Assembly: GCA_002897655.1 (NCBI GenBank)
Contig: BDTJ01000038.1
Coordinates: 66,689 to 130,688 of the forward strand
DNA from: an archaeon BMS3Abin17
Lineage (GTDB): Archaea; Nanobdellota; Nanobdellia; Pacearchaeales; GW2011-AR1
Reading direction: 5' to 3'
DNA: 64,000 nt
The stretch's first letter is position 1, and each line of letters begins with the position of its first letter. The notes below the pieces were generated by a model. It was given only the letters and a program-made list of their open reading frames with translations, did no database searches and was not told the origin of the DNA. Made by a program: the position numbers and the translations under genes. Shown one piece after another: positions 5,572-21,773 of this stretch.

Positions 5572-5852
5572 TTTTTAAATATGAAAAATTTAAATCTCAG
5601 AATTCCACTCATCTATTTGACGAGTGGTCAGGCTGAAATTGCCACTCGTGGAATTCTGGCGATATTCAAGAACCAAGACTGTAGCATTACATGCCTCCAG
5701 TCTGTGACTGGTGGTTCTTGACAATTGGACTGAAATTTTAGTACCACCTTCTTTTTAAATATATCTTTTGCTTTTCTCTGCCTTTTTTTGATGGTTTTTT
5801 AAGAATACCAAATTATAAAAACTTATTTAAACAAGTTCGCACAATTTTTTAT

Positions 5853-6497
5853 ATGGAAAAGGGGATAAAAGCAGTTATTTTTGATGTTGGAGGGGTTTTG
5901 GCCCTCCAGAAAAATCCAAAAATTGTAAAACAAAGAGGAAACAAGACTTTCGGAGTCCACAAATATATCGCCAAGAAACTTGGCATAAGCATAGACCAGT
6001 GGTTTGATTCAGTTGATACTATTTATGCTCTGTCTATAGAAGGAAAAATATCTAAGAGAAAAGCTCTTAACGCTCTTTCTGAAAATGTAAAAATAAATGA
6101 AAAGAAAATGGAAAAAATTTTGTCCAATGCATATAAAAAGAATTTCACAACAAATAAGGAACTTTATAAAATAGCATTTAAATTAAAAAAACAGGGTTAT
6201 AAACTAGCACTTTTATCTGACCAATGGCACTTTTCTAAAGATATTCTAATGCCTAAAAGGCACATAAAACAGTTTAATGTATCTATTGCATCATGTAATG
6301 TTGGTATGAGAAAACCAAATCCCAAGATTTACAAACTTGCTCTTAAAAAATTAAAAACTCCTGCAAGACAAACTTTGTTTATTGATAACCAGATATGGAA
6401 TATAAAGCCAGCAAAAAAACTTGGAATAAATACAATCTTATTCAAGGATAATAAACAATTAATTAAAGATTTAAGAAAATTTGGGGTTGAGGTCTGA
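5853..6497 (+). CDS. HAD-superfamily hydrolase
   Basis: 214 aa; N-terminal DxG motif (VIFDVGGVLA) and C-terminal HAD motifs; divergent from treT. Confidence 0.6.
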   Translation: MEKGIKAVIFDVGGVLALQKNPKIVKQRGNKTFGVHKYIAKKLGISIDQWFDSVDTIYALSIEGKISKRKALNALSENVKINEKKMEKILSNAYKKNFTTNKELYKIAFKLKKQGYKLALLSDQWHFSKDILMPKRHIKQFNVSIASCNVGMRKPNPKIYKLALKKLKTPARQTLFIDNQIWNIKPAKKLGINTILFKDNKQLIKDLRKFGVEV

Positions 6498-7327
6498 TGA
6501 ATACTAAAGATTTCCTAGACAAAATAAAAATTGAATTAAAGATATCAAAAAACTCAGAATATACAATTAGGAATTACATTAACTCAAACCTGAGGTTTTT
6601 AAATTTCTCAAAAAAACAACCAGAAGATATAACAGAAGACGATATAAAATCATATCTTGCTGAGAATCTTAGTGAAAAAGCATCAACTTCAATCATTCTT
6701 TTCTTATCTGCAATAAAGTATTCATATCTTAATATTTTGAAGAGAGACCCAACTGCAGGAATTAAAAGACCTAAAAGAGAGAAAAGAATTCCAACAGTTT
6801 TAACAAAGGATGAGATAAAAAAACTCCTAAAGTCTTTTGATGCAAAAAAGTCAAAGTTAATGGTAAGTTTAATGTATGCTTGTGGAATGAGAGTATCAGA
6901 ATTATTAAATCTGGAAATTCAGAATTTTGATTTTGATGAGAAAATAGGGCATATTAGGCAAGCAAAAGGAAGAAAAGACAGGATTTTCAATATCCCTTTA
7001 TTTTTATTTGAAGATTTAAAAGATCAGGCAGATAAACAAAAGAAAGATAATCAAATTTATTTGTTTACAGGTCCGAAAGGGAAATTATCTCCAAGAAATC
7101 TTCAGAAGATTGTTTCAAAAGCAGCTAAGCGTGCAGAAATAAAGAAAGATGTACATTGTCACACTCTGCGTCATTCTTTTGCAACACATCTACTTGAAAA
7201 CAATATTGATATAAGAAAAATTCAGGAGCTTTTAGGACATGCTGACTTATCAACAACCCAGATATACACTCACATCTCAAAAGAAGAATTAAAAAAGATA
7301 AAATCCCCTTTAGATGAATTGATGTGA
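6497..7327 (+). CDS. Tyrosine recombinase/integrase, Xer-like
   Basis: 276 aa; C-terminal catalytic region HTLRHSFATHLLENNIDIRKIQELLGHADLSTTQIYTH (R..H..R..Y tetrad context). Confidence 0.8.
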   Translation: MNTKDFLDKIKIELKISKNSEYTIRNYINSNLRFLNFSKKQPEDITEDDIKSYLAENLSEKASTSIILFLSAIKYSYLNILKRDPTAGIKRPKREKRIPTVLTKDEIKKLLKSFDAKKSKLMVSLMYACGMRVSELLNLEIQNFDFDEKIGHIRQAKGRKDRIFNIPLFLFEDLKDQADKQKKDNQIYLFTGPKGKLSPRNLQKIVSKAAKRAEIKKDVHCHTLRHSFATHLLENNIDIRKIQELLGHADLSTTQIYTHISKEELKKIKSPLDELM

Positions 7328-7770
7328 ATATGGAAGACGAAATTGATAAATTAAAACAAGAAAACGAGAAACTTAAACAAGAAATAGAAGAATTAAAATC
7401 AAAAATAAGTGATAATAACAGAGGGGAAATTCAAAAAAAAGGAATGATGCAGAAGGCCTCTAAAGGAAACATCATGACAAGGCCTGCTTTTGGGTATAAA
7501 TTAGAGAATAGTAAACTAATCCCTGCAGAGAATTTTAGAGAAGTTGAAGAAATATTTGAGGAATTTCTAACAACAAATATTAGCCTGACTCAATTATCAA
7601 AGAAACATAATTTTTCGGTTAACGGATTAAAAAAGATACTGAAAAACTTTACATATATTGGAAAGATTAAATTCAATAACCAAATTCATGAAGGAAACCA
7701 TCAACCAATAATTTCATCAACTCTTTTTAATCATGTTCAGAATAAGTTAGAAAAAATAGGAATCAAATAA
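7324..7770 (+). CDS. Orphan 'Recombinase' (large-serine-recombinase DNA-binding) domain protein with N-terminal coiled coil
   Basis: 148 aa; GTG/ATG start overlapping Xer stop; region RPAFGYK...EVEEIFEEFL...HQPIISSTLFNHVQ matches the pattern of the PF07508-type recombinase domain (APYGY...EAEvVr.IF......HEPIIs.elFe.VQ) but no resolvase catalytic domain. Confidence 0.5.
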   Translation: MNMEDEIDKLKQENEKLKQEIEELKSKISDNNRGEIQKKGMMQKASKGNIMTRPAFGYKLENSKLIPAENFREVEEIFEEFLTTNISLTQLSKKHNFSVNGLKKILKNFTYIGKIKFNNQIHEGNHQPIISSTLFNHVQNKLEKIGIK

Positions 7771-7846
7771 AACTTATTCTGAATCCCCTTCAAATTCCAA
7801 AGAATGCCTACAAGAATTTGTCAGTGTTCAGAATAAGTTAGAAAAA
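7734..7846. repeat. Exact 22-nt direct repeat (tgttcagaataagttagaaaaa at 7734-7755 and 7825-7846) with a 13-bp inverted repeat arm (7771-7783) between the copies
   Basis: Read directly; first copy forms last codons of 7324..7770, second is intergenic before rps9 stop; ttcagaataagtt/aacttattctgaa can form a hairpin. Confidence 0.7.
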
Positions 7847-7860
7847 TGGCATACAATAAT

Positions 7861-8271
7861 TTATCTATAAGAAGTCTGTCTTTTACGTCTTGCTTTACTA
7901 TCTCCTGGCTTATATGTTTCTTTTCTTCTTACATCAGCAATAAGTAAAGACCAATCATAGTTATCAAAAGCTTCTTCAAGTTCTTTTGATTGAGCAAATT
8001 TATTGATTGCTCTAGCTAAAGCAAGTCTAGCAGCTTCTATTTGACTTTTTTCTCCACCACCCTTTACATTAATTTTAACATCAAAATTAATCTTACCAAG
8101 GATATTTTCAGTAATTCTTAAAGGCTCATCAATTTTTAGTTTGTCAAACATTTGAAGTGTTTTATAATCTTTATTATTAACAGTTATCTTTCCAGAACCC
8201 TCTGTTAAAACAGCTCTTGCAACAGCAGTCTTTCTCTTCCCAGAAGTTATTATTTTTTTTATTTCACTCAT
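7861..8271 (-). CDS. rps9: 30S ribosomal protein uS9
   Basis: 136 aa; GKRKTAVARA...GGG.KSQ..A..LALARA... C-terminal RRKRQTSYR; follows rpl13 as in archaeal operon. Confidence 0.9.
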   Translation of the reverse strand: MSEIKKIITSGKRKTAVARAVLTEGSGKITVNNKDYKTLQMFDKLKIDEPLRITENILGKINFDVKINVKGGGEKSQIEAARLALARAINKFAQSKELEEAFDNYDWSLLIADVRRKETYKPGDSKARRKRQTSYR

Positions 8272-9082: not shown

Positions 9083-9337
9083 TCAAGAAAAAACAGATTT
9101 ATAAAGATATTGGTTACTACGAGCTTTTTTTAACCTTTGGTAATGGGCTTCATTAATCCTTGCGAATTTAGATTTTCTGTCTACAGGCCAATATCCCATC
9201 CAATTTTTCTCCTCTTCCTTTGTTTGAGGAGTATATGTTTTATCATGATAAATACTCATGACTGATTCATTATATTCTACTTTTTGAGGTTTAATAACTT
9301 CATTAACATCCACAACTTTAATAGTTCTTCTTTTCAT
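9083..9337 (-). CDS. Hypothetical protein
   Basis: 84 aa ORF overlapping MscS stop by 4 nt; no recognisable domain. Confidence 0.3.
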   Translation of the reverse strand: MKRRTIKVVDVNEVIKPQKVEYNESVMSIYHDKTYTPQTKEEEKNWMGYWPVDRKSKFARINEAHYQRLKKARSNQYLYKSVFS

Positions 9338-10395
9338 TTTTTAACATGTATTGTCTGGGTTGGGAAGGCAAATCCTATCTTTTCCTTTTCAAATGCCTCT
9401 TTTAAAGAGAGGTTTATTGATTCCTGTGTATCCATGTATTTATTATAATCAGAAGTCTTGAGGTAATAAACAACTTCATAATTTAGACTGAAGTCTCCAA
9501 ATTCCTTAAAATGAACTCTGTCTAACTCAGCTAATTTTTCCTTATCTATTATTTTTTTTACAATACTTTTTATTTTTTCCATCTTTCTTACTGGGGTGTT
9601 ATACTCTATGCCAAAACCAAAAACTATTCTCCTCTTTTGCATACGCTTGTAATTATTAATTCTGCTGCTTGTAAGCTCACTGTTGGAAACCACCAGTTCC
9701 TGCCCCTGAAGAGTCTGTATACGTGTTGTTTTAATCCCAATGTGTTTCACTACCCCCATATCATTACCGAGAATAATAAAATCTCCTTCCTGAAACGGCT
9801 TGTCAAGGTAAATTGCAAATGCACTGAATAAGTCTCCAAGAATTGTCTGAAGAGCTAAGGCAATGGCAATCCCTCCAACACCAATTCCTGCAATTAAAGG
9901 GGTTATTTCAATTCCAAAATTTGAGAGAATCATGAGCAATGCAAGAGTCCAAATAATGACTTTTACAATTACCCCCATAACTTTTACCATTGAGGTATCT
10001 TCTCTTTTTTGTTTTTCTGTTCTTTTTTTTATCTCTTTCTTAACTAAATGATCAACTATTTGTATAATCCCTTTTGTAGCATAAAAAACAATAAAAATAA
10101 TCATCAAATATCCAAGGATTTTTTCAATAATATCTGATAATGCAAGTGTTTTTGCAGATATATACAGGGCAATAAACACAAAAAAAGGCCACTTTATTCC
10201 TTTTATAAAATCTATAATAATATCATCCCAGATTATTTTTGTTTTACGGCTGGCTTTTTGAAGAATGTTTAAACCGATTGTGTCAATTATCTTAAATCCG
10301 ATAAATAATCCGATAAATAATCCAATAGCAACTAATACTTCTTTTGGGGTATTGCTTCCTATAATATAGCTGATTATCTCTTCAAAATCTATCAT
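9334..10395 (-). CDS. Small-conductance mechanosensitive channel (MscS family)
   Basis: 353 aa; 3 N-terminal TM helices then GIGVGGIAIALALQTILGDLFSAFAIYLDKPFQEGDFI...IQTLQGQELVVSNSEL typical MscS core. Confidence 0.8.
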   Translation of the reverse strand: MIDFEEIISYIIGSNTPKEVLVAIGLFIGLFIGFKIIDTIGLNILQKASRKTKIIWDDIIIDFIKGIKWPFFVFIALYISAKTLALSDIIEKILGYLMIIFIVFYATKGIIQIVDHLVKKEIKKRTEKQKREDTSMVKVMGVIVKVIIWTLALLMILSNFGIEITPLIAGIGVGGIAIALALQTILGDLFSAFAIYLDKPFQEGDFIILGNDMGVVKHIGIKTTRIQTLQGQELVVSNSELTSSRINNYKRMQKRRIVFGFGIEYNTPVRKMEKIKSIVKKIIDKEKLAELDRVHFKEFGDFSLNYEVVYYLKTSDYNKYMDTQESINLSLKEAFEKEKIGFAFPTQTIHVKK

Positions 10396-10438
10396 TTTAT
10401 GATTATTAAAAGAAATTTTGTTTTTTATATCTTTTTAT

Positions 10439-10521
10439 GCGGGAGAAAGGATTCGAACCTTTGTAAGCACTAAGCTAACAGATTTTGAGTCTGTCCTGTT
10501 TGACCACTCCAGCACTCCCGC
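10439..10521 (-). tRNA. tRNA-Leu (anticodon CAA), type II long variable arm
   Basis: Hand fold: acceptor GCGGGAG/CTCCCGC, D arm CTG..CAG, anticodon stem ACAGA/TCTGT loop CTCAAAA, 15-nt variable arm, T arm AAAGG-TTCGAAT-CCTTT. Confidence 0.8.
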
Positions 10522-10566
10522 ATAAAAATAGGATAAATCCCCTGTATAAAAAGGTTTAGAATTAAA

Positions 10567-21430: not shown

Positions 21431-21587
21431 AAAATTAAGCTATGCCCTTTATATTTAAATCTAACTAATAACCAATAGCAAGTTTTAAAAAATAAACAAA
21501 AGGTTTAAAAAACACTTTCAATCTCTATAATATAAGTAAATTTAGATTAATTAATATAGTTAATAGGAGCTTAAAATCATTATACCG

Positions 21588-21773
21588 GTGCGTTGTTTCA
21601 GTTGCGGAAAACCAATTGGCCACTTGTGGGAAGAATTCAAGAAAAGAAGAGACTCAGGAGAAAATATCCAAAAACTTTTAGAGGAATATGGGTTAGAGAG
21701 ATATTGCTGCAGAGCAGTTTTTCTAGGACAACAGGACTTAATCAAGCTTGTTGGAAGATTCAAAAAATCTTAA
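21588..21773 (+). CDS. rpoN: RNA polymerase subunit Rpo10 (RpoN)
   Basis: 61 aa; RCFSCGKPIGHLWEEF...RYCCRAVFLGQQDLI matches RpoN/RPB10 zinc bundle; GTG start in track, in-frame upstream codons ATC ATT ATA CCG would restore the canonical IIPVRCF N-terminus. Confidence 0.8.
   Translation: MRCFSCGKPIGHLWEEFKKRRDSGENIQKLLEEYGLERYCCRAVFLGQQDLIKLVGRFKKS

What the first reader, a model, noticed from the sequence alone, without database searches (positions are those of the whole stretch)
6497..7860. Xer-like tyrosine recombinase coupled to an orphan serine-recombinase 'Recombinase' domain protein, followed by an exact 22-nt direct repeat and hairpin
The 276-aa tyrosine recombinase stops at TGA 7325-7327. 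The next ORF starts at GTG 7324 or ATG 7330, so the two are tightly coupled. That ORF is 148 aa: an N-terminal coiled coil (EIDKLKQENEKLKQEIEELKSK) followed by a segment with the hallmark pattern of the DNA-binding 'Recombinase' domain of large serine recombinases (RPAFGYK...EVEEIFEEFL...HQPIISSTLFNHVQ). It has no resolvase catalytic domain. A tyrosine recombinase paired with a catalytically dead serine-recombinase DNA-binding module is an unusual architecture. It may act as an accessory or directionality subunit. Immediately 3-prime is an exact 22-nt direct repeat (7734-7755 and 7825-7846) with a 13-bp inverted arm (7771-7783) between the copies. This is att-like or dif-like structure at the point where the conserved archaeal S9-rpoN linkage is broken.
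Basis: partly seen in the sequence, partly recalled or inferred. Interest (0 to 1): 0.65.

Follow-up and report, generated by a model that had tools for sequence, protein, structure and literature searches.

The report
XerA paired with nuclease-less recombinase-domain protein
The small gene after xerA encodes only the DNA-binding part of a serine recombinase. It is a core chromosomal gene of Pacearchaeota-type archaea, as tightly conserved as ribosomal proteins, and it sits beside a slot that holds either XerA or a serine recombinase, not at the edge of a mobile element.

Summary
In detail: xerA (6497-7327), a coupled 148-aa ORF (7324-7770) and an exact 22-nt repeat with an inverted 13-mer are all there.

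**The 148-aa protein.** It has the serine-recombinase arm plus "Recombinase" domain and no catalytic domain. Evidence: Pfam PF07508, and an AF2 model (pLDDT 91.7) that superposes on the A118 integrase-DNA structure.

**The mobile-element reading fails.**
- In about 80 species the gene always lies against the 3' end of the S9 operon.
- It evolves under dN/dS 0.05-0.13, and it is absent from viral contigs.
- It is the nuclease-less end of an undescribed family: HNH-RD, then zinc-ribbon-RD, then coiled-coil-RD.

**The upstream slot.** It holds XerA in 38 loci, a small serine recombinase in 24, and never both.
- Each recombinase type carries its own cognate-looking site at its promoter.
- Some XerA relatives have an 11-6-11 dif-like 28-mer.
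- The window has only one XerA-arm-like half-site (5833-5845).

**The 22-mer.** It is a relic copy of the gene's own 3' end. It forms a 65-nt hairpin shared by two close relatives, and it is not att or dif.

**Function.** A non-catalytic DNA-binding partner of the chromosomal recombination module is inferred, not shown.

The parts
5823..5831 (+). TATA-like box (TTATTTAAA) of the HAD-xerA-RD operon promoter, about 25 nt before the first ATG, which suggests a leaderless transcript
   Evidence: Sequence. The same TATA box, half-site and ATG layout is conserved upstream of the first operon gene in nearly all XerA-type loci. Its promoter function is inferred.
5833..5845 (+). AAGTTCGCACAAT, a half-site almost identical to the left arm of the dif-like 28-mer of relatives, lying between the TATA box and the start codon. 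Candidate XerA operator.
   Evidence: It is present in this position in XerA-type loci whether HAD or xerA is the first gene, and absent from the equivalent position in serine-recombinase-type loci. XerA binding is inferred.
5853..6497 (+). HAD-family hydrolase gene, first gene of the operon; its stop overlaps the xerA start
   Evidence: PF00702 at 2.2e-15. HAD-xerA-RD is the commonest order in relatives.
6497..7327 (+). xerA, an archaeal Xer-type tyrosine recombinase with catalytic residues intact
   Evidence: NF040815 at 234 bits, above the 220 cutoff. Hits to P. abyssi XerA 4A8E at 2.4e-40 and T. acidophilum XerA 5HXY. Aligned to IntI4, the R, K, HxxR, H and Y motifs are kept and the integron-integrase insertion is absent.
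7324..7770 (+). Gene for the 148-aa RD-only protein (alternative start ATG 7330)
   Evidence: PF07508. The CcrA model aligns residues 8-141 to CcrA 106-247. AF2 pLDDT is 91.7. Foldseek top hits are 4KIS, 6DNW and 9DXH. More than 1600 homologues at 68-84% identity.
7330..7413 (+). N-terminal heptad-repeat helix (residues 3-30). It occupies the place of the HNH nuclease or zinc ribbon of longer family members.
   Evidence: Helix 3-30 in the model; 21-nt periodic DNA repeats at 7334-7405; alignment with HNH-RD and zinc-ribbon-RD relatives.
7420..7767 (+). Remnant of helix E and the arm (GEIQKKGMMQKASKG) plus the recombinase domain, the constant and strongly constrained part of the family
   Evidence: Invariant columns. 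Profile hit to the A118 integrase RD at E 1.2e-6. Structural match with rmsd 2.3 A over 118 columns. dN/dS 0.05-0.13.
7734..7755 (+). 22-nt direct repeat, copy 1, inside the last codons of the RD gene (HVQNKLEK)
7771..7783 (+). Inverted copy of the 13-nt core, starting right after the stop codon
7773..7837 (.). 65-nt imperfect palindrome. Outer stem 7773-7783 with 7827-7837; inner stem CAAATTC 7791-7797 with GAATTTG 7814-7820. On the minus strand it is followed by a T-rich run, which makes it a possible end signal for the S9 operon transcript.
   Evidence: The consensus fold of the window, L087 and L017 has 21 pairs, 3 of them with changes on both sides. Single-sequence folds give z -2.3 and -1.5. 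No Rfam match. Function is inferred.
7825..7859 (+). Degenerate second copy of the RD gene tail. The exact 22-mer is 7825-7846; beyond it the copy is diverged, with a 1-nt deletion, up to an old TAA at 7857-7859.
   Evidence: Direct reading. In L087 the second copy is a complete alternative tail (VQNKIERLKIR*). In L017 a 47-nt exact copy includes the stop codon.
7861..8271 (-). Ribosomal protein S9 gene, convergent, the fixed right-hand neighbour of the RD gene
   Evidence: 74 of 74 loci with both genes have RD convergent with S9, with gaps from 0 to 2984 nt.

Best explanation
**What it is (shown).**
- The 148-aa ORF belongs to a Pacearchaeota-wide chromosomal protein family.
- The constant part of the family is the DNA-binding module of serine recombinases: the C-terminal half of helix E, the arm, and the 'Recombinase' domain.
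- The N-terminus varies. It is an intact HNH nuclease (about 210-220 aa), a decayed HNH reduced to a zinc ribbon (about 175 aa), or, as in the window, a heptad-repeat helix (about 140-150 aa).
- The protein has no recombinase or nuclease catalytic residues.
- The gene is under purifying selection as strong as that on neighbouring ribosomal protein genes.
- The gene keeps a fixed position: on its right, the 3' end of the S9 operon. On its left, a slot holds XerA in about half of the species and a small serine recombinase (catalytic domain plus RD, no zinc ribbon) in about a third, never both.
- In the window it is the last gene of a HAD-xerA-RD operon.
- That operon's promoter carries a half-site nearly identical to one arm of the clade's dif-like 28-mer.

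**How it most likely works (inferred).**
- The protein dimerises through its N-terminal helix.
- It binds a specific DNA site without cutting it.
- It serves as a non-catalytic partner (site-marking, architectural or regulatory) of whichever chromosomal site-specific recombinase occupies the slot, which is XerA here.

**The 22-nt repeat (inferred).** It is not a recombination site. It is a relic second copy of the gene's 3' end, left by a past insertion or allele replacement at that end. Together with an inverted copy it forms a 65-nt hairpin between the two convergent transcription units.
For: **Fold and domain:**

**Family series (HNH-RD to zinc-ribbon-RD to coiled-coil-RD).**
- Alignment.
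- Pfam finds HNH plus Recombinase in L034 and in hundreds of proteins of about 210 aa.
- A core-type full-length HNH-RD occurs in L070.

**Constraint.** RD dN/dS is 0.049-0.130, against 0.067-0.219 for S9 and 0.094-0.136 for XerA in the same genome pairs.

**Fixed position.** RD is convergent with S9 in 74 of 74 loci.

**The slot.**
- It holds XerA in 38 loci, a serine recombinase in 24, both in 0.
- The two states are interspersed on the S9+L13 tree and on the RD tree.
- L010 versus L059 shows a clean cassette swap between flanks of about 81% identity.

**Coupling.**
- XerA is directly adjacent to RD in 21 of 38 loci, mostly with a 4-nt overlap.
- XerA + HNH-RD are adjacent in L094 and L095.
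- SerRec overlaps RD or HNH-RD in L066, L077, L090 and L092.

**Cognate-looking sites at each recombinase's own promoter.**
- XerA type: half-site, plus an 11-6-11 28-mer in many relatives.
- Serine type: palindromes with a 2-bp centre, found in every locus whose recombinase resembles L003's, and a second type in 9 of the 10 other loci examined.

**Not viral:**

**Tail relic.**
- Homologous tail / inverted copy / tail structure in L087 and L017.
- Other RD-tail fragments lie downstream in L045, L082, L062 and L058.
- A direct precedent at xerA: in L070 a homing-endonuclease-like ORF is inserted at the xerA 3' end and fused to a duplicated XerA tail.
Against: - No physical or functional interaction between XerA and the RD protein was tested.
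- Adjacency to a recombinase is no better conserved than adjacency to S9, with which no functional link is expected. Synteny alone is therefore weak evidence in this compact, slowly rearranging region.
- In 17 of 38 XerA loci other genes separate xerA from RD.
- L016 keeps RD while xerA is reduced to a 43-codon remnant.
- Several loci have HAD directly followed by RD, with no recombinase within 6 kb.
- RD sequences do not cluster by recombinase type.
- No conserved DNA motif that could be the RD protein's own binding site was found.
- P. abyssi XerA needs no partner in vitro (PMC2958812).
- The window holds no full dif-like site in 64 kb.
Confidence: 0.45

Rival explanations
1. The RD-only protein is a domesticated DNA-binding protein, such as a transcription factor or a nucleoid or origin-proximal factor. 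Its function would have nothing to do with XerA, and the adjacency would be inherited gene order in a small, compact genome.
For: - RD-S9 adjacency is universal although no functional link is expected there.
- RD persists where xerA is deleted (L016) or displaced by up to 4 kb of other genes.
- RD has its own TATA-type promoter where it is separated from the recombinase.
- RD does not co-diverge with recombinase type.
- In several relatives the locus lies 4-6 kb from cdc6/orc1 and PolD.
Against: - Whenever XerA is missing from the slot, the replacement seen is another site-specific recombinase rather than a random gene, and never both.
- The protein derives from a recombinase DNA-binding module.
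- Stop/start overlaps with XerA or the serine recombinase are frequent.
Confidence: 0.3
2. The family is a selfish homing-endonuclease lineage (HNH-RD). The window's copy would be a decayed member retained because its DNA-binding domain protects the target site, or otherwise gives immunity against active relatives. Nuclease-driven gene conversion would explain the recombinase swaps and the tail duplications.
For: - Intact, partly deleted and absent HNH domains occur in orthologous positions.
- A free-standing HNH ORF lies between xerA and RD in four loci.
- A second endonuclease-like ORF (c86) is inserted at the xerA tail with target duplication.
- A cassette-like swap occurs between near-identical flanks.
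- The content between RD and S9 is variable.
Against: - The gene is universal at one locus in the sampled order.
- It evolves under dN/dS 0.05-0.13, unlike a decaying selfish gene.
- It is not found on viral contigs.
- No target site is known.
Confidence: 0.12
3. One reading: xerA and the RD gene belong to an integrated mobile element inserted between S9 and rpoN. The 22-nt direct repeats would be its att (or dif-like) sites and the RD protein its accessory or directionality factor.
For: An exact 22-nt direct repeat plus an inverted arm lies next to recombinase genes.
Against: - The gene order is conserved in about 80 species.
- rpoN is displaced in all of them.
- The repeats enclose 69 nt of non-coding DNA.
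- Both recombinase genes lie outside the repeats.
- The repeat is the gene's own tail.
- Twelve loci have RD and S9 abutting within 25 nt, with no repeat.
- There are no viral homologues.
- The clade's dif-like site is a different sequence at a different place.
Confidence: 0.02
4. The hairpin made by the inverted copy and the second tail copy is a functional RNA or DNA element in its own right. It could be a transcript end or stability signal between the convergent RD and S9 units, kept by selection rather than being a mere relic.
For: - It is conserved in three species, with 3 of 21 pairs changed on both sides.
- On the minus strand the stem is followed by TTTTATTT and TTTTTT runs.
- The exact identity of the 22-mer contrasts with diverged flanks.
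Against: - Only three sequences are available, and gene conversion between the copies would mimic covariation.
- Fold z-scores are modest at -2.3 and -1.5.
- Across loci, hairpins at the RD stop are not enriched: 13 loci with one (my count), against about 10 expected's overall density of 67 hairpins in 53 kb.
- There is no Rfam match.
Confidence: 0.25

Closest known systems
Recombinase domain (RD) of large serine integrases, e.g. Listeria phage A118/LI integrase bound to attP half-site (PDB 4KIS, 6DNW)
   Same: Same fold: Foldseek E 1.7e-6, TM 0.65 on the query, rmsd 2.3 A over 118 columns, 27% identity. Profile hit at E 1.2e-6. PF07508 scores above its cutoff. The helix-E/arm motif upstream of the domain is retained.
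   Different: There is no N-terminal resolvase catalytic domain and no zinc-ribbon or coiled-coil domain, so the protein cannot cut or exchange strands. It is chromosomal, order-wide and constrained rather than phage-borne.
Archaeal XerA/dif chromosome dimer resolution (Pyrococcus abyssi, Cortez et al. 2010, PMC2958812)
   Same: The 276-aa protein passes the XerA equivalog model and keeps the catalytic residues. Relatives carry a 28-bp site with 11-bp inverted arms and a 6-bp spacer, which is the dif geometry described in that paper.
   Different: In Thermococcales dif is not next to xerA and XerA acts alone in vitro. Here the dif-like site, where present, lies about 54 nt upstream of the xerA operon promoter, a single arm sits inside the promoter, and a recombinase-derived DNA-binding gene is coupled to xerA.
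Single-recombinase Xer systems with the site beside the gene (XerS/difSL of streptococci, XerH/difH of Helicobacter). From my own knowledge; reviewed in PMC5357621, of which only the title and abstract were seen.
   Same: A recombinase gene and its candidate site form one compact chromosomal module in many relatives.
   Different: Those are bacterial systems, depend on FtsK, and have no RD-type partner gene. The window itself lacks the full site.
Tn3/gamma-delta-type resolvase with res at its own promoter, including non-catalytic resolvase subunits at accessory sites (own knowledge)
   Same: The serine-recombinase-type relatives have a palindrome with a 2-bp centre overlapping the promoter of the recombinase operon. 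In one type, extra half-sites flank it. A catalytically inert serine-recombinase-like DNA binder resembles in principle the architectural subunits at res sites II and III.
   Different: No transposon context was found. The recombinase has an RD rather than a small helix-turn-helix domain. The inert protein is a separate gene. Nothing is shown about synapse architecture.
Free-standing HNH homing endonucleases with modular DNA-binding domains (own knowledge)
   Same: Longer family members fuse an HNH nuclease to a sequence-reading domain. Gene-tail duplications occur at insertion points.
   Different: The DNA-binding domain is of serine-recombinase type; I found no description of this architecture, including in the His-Me finger survey PMC5714182. 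The window's member has lost the nuclease yet remains under strong constraint.

Membership tests
Archaeal XerA (276-aa protein) | Scores above the curated cutoff of the XerA equivalog model | tested here: met
   NF040815 at 234 bits against a cutoff of 220. The XerC, XerD and IntI models score below their cutoffs.
Archaeal XerA (276-aa protein) | Tyrosine-recombinase catalytic residues R, K, HxxR, H, Y | tested here: met
   GMRVSE, QAKGRK, HTLRHSF, LGH and QIYTH align to the corresponding IntI4 motifs.
Archaeal XerA (276-aa protein) | A cognate dif site (11-bp inverted arms, 6-bp spacer) in the chromosome | tested here: inconclusive
   No full site in the 64-kb window, only one arm at 5833-5845. 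Full sites with 0-1 mismatch occur next to xerA in 10 relatives. The rest of the genome was not available.
Integron integrase (IntI) with attC cassettes | IntI-specific insertion in the catalytic domain | tested here: not met
   The alignment to IntI4 falls into two stretches that skip IntI4 residues 186-244. TIGR02249 scores 214.5 against a cutoff of 265.
Integron integrase (IntI) with attC cassettes | attC hairpin with RYYYAAC / GTTRRRY core sites | tested here: not met
   By inspection, the 65-nt hairpin has GTTCAGA and no RYYYAAC. Hairpins are not enriched at cassette borders in relatives.
Large serine recombinase (148-aa protein) | N-terminal resolvase catalytic domain with the serine nucleophile (PF00239) | tested here: not met
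   No PF00239 hit. The N-terminus is a single helix. Genuine serine recombinases in relatives do hit PF00239 at 1e-41 to 1e-45.
Large serine recombinase (148-aa protein) | Recombinase domain PF07508 | tested here: met
Large serine recombinase (148-aa protein) | C-terminal zinc-ribbon domain with coiled-coil motif | tested here: not met
   The protein ends 4 residues after the RD. No such Pfam hit.
HNH-RD family of Pacearchaeota (defined here) | RD orthologous to that of HNH-RD proteins, at the same locus | tested here: met
   61% identity over 143 residues to the L070 HNH-RD and 73% in the RD. Same position between the recombinase slot and S9.
HNH-RD family of Pacearchaeota (defined here) | N-terminal HNH nuclease domain | tested here: not met
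   No significant HNH hit. The alignment shows the HNH region absent, with a heptad helix in its place. The window's protein is therefore a nuclease-less member.
Integrated mobile element bounded by att direct repeats | Repeats flank the element, including its recombinase; relatives show an empty site; patchy distribution | tested here: not met
   The repeats enclose 69 nt and lie 3' of both genes. The order is conserved in about 80 species. No viral homologues.
dif site (for the 22-mer and hairpin) | Two roughly 11-bp inverted arms separated by 6-8 bp, conserved among relatives | tested here: not met
   The arms are 13 nt, 22 or 43 nt apart. The motif is confined to the window, L087 and L017. 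Twelve loci have no RD-S9 spacer at all.
Recombination directionality factor of a serine integrase | Binds the integrase coiled-coil motif and switches direction | not testable with these tools
   No family-wide sequence signature exists. The partner here is a tyrosine recombinase, and the serine recombinases of relatives lack the coiled-coil motif.

The most novel reading that the evidence does not exclude
Pacearchaeota-type archaea would carry a swappable chromosomal recombination cassette, probably for chromosome-dimer resolution, next to the S9 operon.
- In some species it is XerA with an adjacent 11-6-11 dif-like site.
- In others it is a small serine recombinase with its own palindromic crossover-like site.
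- In both cases it is served by the same dedicated recombinase-derived DNA-binding protein (HNH-RD or its nuclease-less form).

If true, this would be:
- the first chromosomal serine recombinase standing in for Xer;
- the first dedicated partner protein of an archaeal Xer system;
- a new use of the serine-integrase DNA-binding domain.
Probability: 0.2. Interest if true: 0.85.

Novelty: new variant of a known kind. Interest (0 to 1): 0.6.

Why it matters
Archaea lack FtsK, and how XerA is controlled in vivo is an open question. A partner protein was explicitly considered possible in the founding paper (PMC2958812).

This study turns up four things:
- A strongly constrained gene for a catalytically inert serine-recombinase DNA-binding module is coupled to xerA across a whole archaeal order.
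- xerA is replaced in situ by serine recombinases in a third of the species.
- Candidate recombination sites exist for both enzyme types.
- An undescribed HNH-plus-recombinase-domain protein family has a visible decay series.

Together these give concrete, testable material: proteins and 28-bp or 18-bp sites for in vitro recombination assays.

They bear on three questions. How do minimal-genome archaea resolve chromosome dimers? Can tyrosine and serine recombinases substitute for each other? How are recombinase DNA-binding domains recruited to new roles?

For annotation, it shows that "recombinase family protein" next to xerA in these genomes is not a marker of a mobile element.

Tried and rejected
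1. **dif or att reading of the 22-mer.** Rejected on geometry, lack of conservation, and the 12 relatives with RD and S9 within 25 nt.
2. **Integron/attC reading.** Rejected: no IntI insertion and no core sites.
3. **A general hairpin over the RD stop codon.** 13 loci have one (my count), against about 10 expected from the overall density. Not enriched.
4. **Rfam and terminator scans.** Rfam finds nothing at the hairpin or inside the gene beyond a chance snoU18 hit at E 0.15. The bacterial-type terminator scan finds nothing there.
5. **Insert as a remnant of the DUF4389 gene** that often follows RD. Only a weak resemblance (LTNS.. versus FVTNK..). Not convincing.
6. **Viral origin.** No relative of RD or HNH-RD in IMG/VR.
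7. **Metagenome scan with the 15-mer AACTTATTCTGAATC.** These look like chance matches (my inference), so the scan was uninformative.
8. **First AF2 model** from 25 near-identical sequences was poor (pLDDT 62.8). A model from 87 more diverse sequences was good.
9. **First k-mer screen for conserved intergenic motifs** found only tRNA and start-region words. The sites emerged only when regions upstream of each recombinase type were analysed separately.
10. **Genome-level test of whether serine-recombinase-type genomes lack xerA.** Matching contig lengths between the XerA and HNH-RD hit lists only revealed more XerA+HNH-RD pairs.
11. **Search for a binding motif of the RD protein upstream of RD.** Only TATA boxes, plus a TGTTTAAACA tandem palindrome in five loci.
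12. **GC skew** follows coding strand only.


Full report
**1. What is in the window**

- A HAD-family hydrolase gene spans 5853-6497.
- It overlaps the start of a 276-aa ORF at 6497-7327.
- The TGA of that ORF (7325-7327) overlaps GTG 7324 of a 148-aa ORF. ATG 7330 is the alternative start.
- The 148-aa ORF ends at TAA 7768-7770.
- Ninety bases further, on the other strand, the S9-L13-L18e genes begin (7861 onward).

The 276-aa protein is an archaeal XerA.
- It passes the NCBIfam equivalog NF040815 (234 bits, cutoff 220) and fails the XerC, XerD and IntI models.
- It matches P. abyssi and T. acidophilum XerA structures at about 1e-40.
- Aligned to IntI4 it keeps all catalytic motifs and lacks the integron-integrase insertion.

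The 148-aa protein carries only the DNA-binding part of a serine recombinase.
- It hits PF07508 above its cutoff and has no resolvase catalytic domain.
- The CcrA model aligns residues 8-141 to CcrA 106-247, which I read as helix E plus the recombinase domain.
- An AF2 model built on 87 sequences reaches pLDDT 91.7.
- It superposes on the A118/LI integrase C-terminal domain bound to DNA (4KIS: E 1.7e-6, rmsd 2.3 A over 118 columns). 6DNW, 9DXH and phiC31 integrase follow.
- Residues 3-30 form one helix encoded by DNA with a 21-nt periodicity.

The 22-mer is exact at 7734-7755 and 7825-7846. Its 13-nt core recurs inverted at 7771-7783, and there are no other copies in 64 kb. The first copy lies inside the gene's last codons.

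**2. A core chromosomal gene, not a mobile element**

- The 148-aa protein has more than 1600 homologues of about 140 aa at 68-84% identity, labelled Pacearchaeota, Woesearchaeota or Nanoarchaeota.
- A profile search of 1.8 billion cluster representatives finds only 18 clusters below 1e-30 before ordinary serine recombinases begin, so the family is compact and lineage-specific.
- I fetched 80 species-level loci and several metagenomic ones, then clustered their ORFs.
- In 74 of 74 loci that contain both genes, the RD gene is convergent with S9. The gap is 25 nt or less in 12 loci and reaches 3 kb in others.
- rpoN is several kb from S9 in the relatives whose gene tables show it and in the window, where it sits at 21576-21770. 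The broken S9-rpoN linkage therefore looks like a trait of the order.
- Neither RD nor HNH-RD proteins have relatives in IMG/VR.
- Pairwise dN/dS for RD is 0.049-0.130. That is equal to or lower than S9 (0.067-0.219), L13 and XerA in the same genome pairs.

**3. The family behind the protein**

Aligning length variants shows a series.
- **Full form.** L070 has a 222-aa core-type protein with a complete HNH domain fused to the RD. Hundreds of proteins of about 210 aa have Pfam HNH plus Recombinase.
- **Split form.** In four loci the HNH part is a separate ORF between xerA and RD.
- **Zinc-ribbon form.** Proteins of about 175 aa keep the two CxxC knuckles but have lost the HH..N catalytic segment.
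- **Coiled-coil form.** The form of about 140 aa, as in the window, has a heptad helix instead.

All forms share the helix-E/arm motif and a nearly invariant RD. I found no description of an HNH-recombinase-domain architecture or of RD-only proteins in archaea.

**4. The recombinase slot**

Upstream of RD, within 6 kb, 38 loci have XerA and 24 have a serine recombinase of 244-290 aa (Resolvase plus Recombinase domains, no zinc ribbon). Nineteen show neither, mostly because of short flanks or inserted genes. None has both.

Both enzymes occupy the same place.
- The slot lies between a conserved chromosomal block and RD.
- That block is a PRC-barrel gene followed by four further conserved ORFs, some of them probably winged-helix proteins.
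- In L090 and L092 the block is preceded by cdc6/orc1 and PolD.

The two states are interspersed on an S9+L13 tree and on the RD tree.

L010 (serine type) and L059 (XerA type) are about 81% identical in DNA on both sides of a cleanly swapped segment.

All combinations exist:
- XerA with coiled-coil-RD (the window).
- XerA with HNH-RD (L094, L095).
- Serine recombinase with RD (L003, L066, L077).
- Serine recombinase overlapping HNH-RD (L090, L092).

XerA is directly adjacent to RD in 21 of 38 loci.

**5. Candidate recombinase sites**

*XerA-type loci.* Analysing the regions upstream of each recombinase type separately revealed a conserved promoter layout in XerA-type loci. It consists of a TATA box, then AAGTTCG[TC]ACAAT, then 6-9 nt, then the first ATG of the operon.
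- In the window these are 5823-5831, 5833-5845 and 5853.
- Many relatives also have a 28-mer such as ACTTCGTACAA-CCTATA-TTGTGCGAAC, usually 54 nt upstream of that half-site.
- It has 0-1 mismatch to the pattern in 10 loci and a degenerate right arm in about 14 more.
- In L073 the spacer is TGTATA, which from my own knowledge is also the central region of E. coli dif.
- The geometry is that of dif (11-6-11).
- The promoter half-site is nearly identical to its left arm. This suggests XerA autoregulation (inference).
- The window has no full site in 64 kb.

*Serine-recombinase loci.* These have different sites.
- Every locus whose recombinase resembles L003's has TTTATATACTTAGGG-CA-CCCTAA(A/G)T right after a TATA box.
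- Nine of the 10 remaining loci examined have TAAGGG-AA-CCCTTA flanked by further half-sites.
- Palindromes with a 2-bp centre are what serine recombinases cut (own knowledge).
- Remnants of the dif-like 28-mer persist upstream of the serine-type promoter in L020, L037 and L066.

Each recombinase type therefore sits beside its own cognate-looking chromosomal site. This argues for resident recombination modules rather than integrases of inserted elements.

**6. The 22-nt repeat**

- The nearest relatives show the same structure. L087 has the tail, a 54-nt homologous insert that begins with the inverted copy, and then a complete alternative tail (VQNKIERLKIR*). L017 has a 47-nt exact duplication including the stop codon.
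- In the window the second copy is exact for 22 nt and then decays, with a 1-nt deletion, to an old TAA at 7857-7859.
- The inverted copy and the second tail form a 65-nt imperfect hairpin with 21 consensus pairs, 3 of them changed on both sides among the three species.
- On the minus strand the hairpin is followed by T-runs.
- Other RD-tail fragments lie downstream of RD in L045 (codons 100-148 after a 370-aa cargo gene), L082, L062 and L058.
- A clear precedent exists at xerA. In L070 and L038 a 325-337-aa endonuclease-like ORF sits after xerA, and its C-terminus is a duplicated XerA tail (TEELKKIKSPIDSLM in L070, TEELKKIKSLIDSL in L038).
- I therefore read the repeat as a relic of an insertion or allele replacement at the 3' end of a highly conserved gene. 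It may have been co-opted as a transcript-end hairpin.
- It is not an att or dif site.

**7. Function**

*Shown:* fold, absence of catalytic domains, constraint, fixed locus, operon coupling, the slot dichotomy, and the candidate sites.

*Inferred:* the protein is a dimeric, non-catalytic, site-specific DNA binder that works with the chromosomal recombinase in the slot.

*For this inference:*
- It is derived from a recombinase DNA-binding module.
- Stop/start overlaps with both recombinase types are frequent.
- XerA is only ever replaced by another site-specific recombinase.

*Against it:*
- The RD-S9 adjacency is even more constant, yet is presumably non-functional.
- RD survives xerA deletion (L016).
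- RD does not co-diverge with recombinase type.
- No RD binding motif was found.
- XerA needs no partner in vitro.

I put the partner model at about 0.45, an unrelated DNA-binding role at about 0.3, and a homing-endonuclease or immunity role at about 0.12.

**8. Novelty**

- The parts are known kinds: XerA, a serine-recombinase RD, and HNH.
- The following appear undescribed: the RD-only and HNH-RD family, its order-wide coupling to a recombinase slot that alternates between tyrosine and serine enzymes, and the associated sites.
- The review of archaeal tyrosine recombinases states that archaeal serine recombinases were seen in transposons but never fully investigated (PMC8371274).

Noticed in passing
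window 5597-5727 (intergenic, between the minus-strand 445-aa gene and HAD): A GC-richer stretch of about 130 nt folds into two long stem-loops on either strand (MFE -51.7 and -51.2 kcal/mol, z -4.9 and -5.2; 0 of 200 shuffles fold as well). It has no Rfam match and no homologue in any fetched locus or elsewhere in the window. It could be an unannotated structured RNA.
   Followed up: partly
L070 4760-5773 and L038 4662-5639: A 325-337-aa ORF lies between xerA and the RD gene. It has N-terminal HTH repeats, a motif I take to be Vsr/DUF559-like (CDFAIP..IIIECDGDYWH), and a C-terminus that is a duplicated XerA tail. It looks like a homing-endonuclease-type insertion at the xerA 3' end.
   Followed up: partly
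L090 478-3285 and L092 1-4438: In these relatives the recombinase/RD locus lies 4-6 kb from cdc6/orc1 and the PolD subunit genes, so probably near the replication origin. The window has no cdc6 or PRC-barrel block in its 64 kb.
   Followed up: partly
L018, L040, L056, L061, L063, just upstream of the RD start: Two or three tandem copies of the perfect palindrome TGTTTAAACA lie in the RD promoter region of five serine-recombinase-type loci. This could be an operator.
   Followed up: no
L089 885-1394 and L095 6896-7303: IS200/IS605-type Y1 transposase genes are inserted between RD and S9 (L089) and inside the S4-S13 ribosomal protein cluster (L095).
   Followed up: no
window 9083-10522: The ribosomal protein/RpoD gene string is interrupted between L18e and RpoD. 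The inserts are an 84-aa ORF, a 353-aa ORF (9334-10395) that I take to be a mechanosensitive-channel-like membrane protein without having run a domain search, and tRNA-Leu(CAA) at 10437-10522.
   Followed up: no
window 21576-21770 (+): rpoN (74% identical to the L090 RpoN) lies 13.7 kb from S9 on the opposite strand. The same displacement is seen in relatives.
   Followed up: yes
Between RD and S9 in many loci (e.g. L001 6494-7324, L082 5545-6075, L087 3048-3431): A small set of recurring single-gene inserts appears in varying order and orientation: a DUF4389 protein, a 176-200-aa protein starting GxDESNxG with no Pfam hit, a 110-127-aa protein with what looks to me like a D..EYK nuclease-like motif, Ogt, and NUDIX. 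This makes the RD-S9 junction an insertion hot spot.
   Followed up: partly
L016 3947-4090: Only the first 43 codons of xerA remain between HAD and RD, so xerA has been deleted in place while RD is intact.
   Followed up: no
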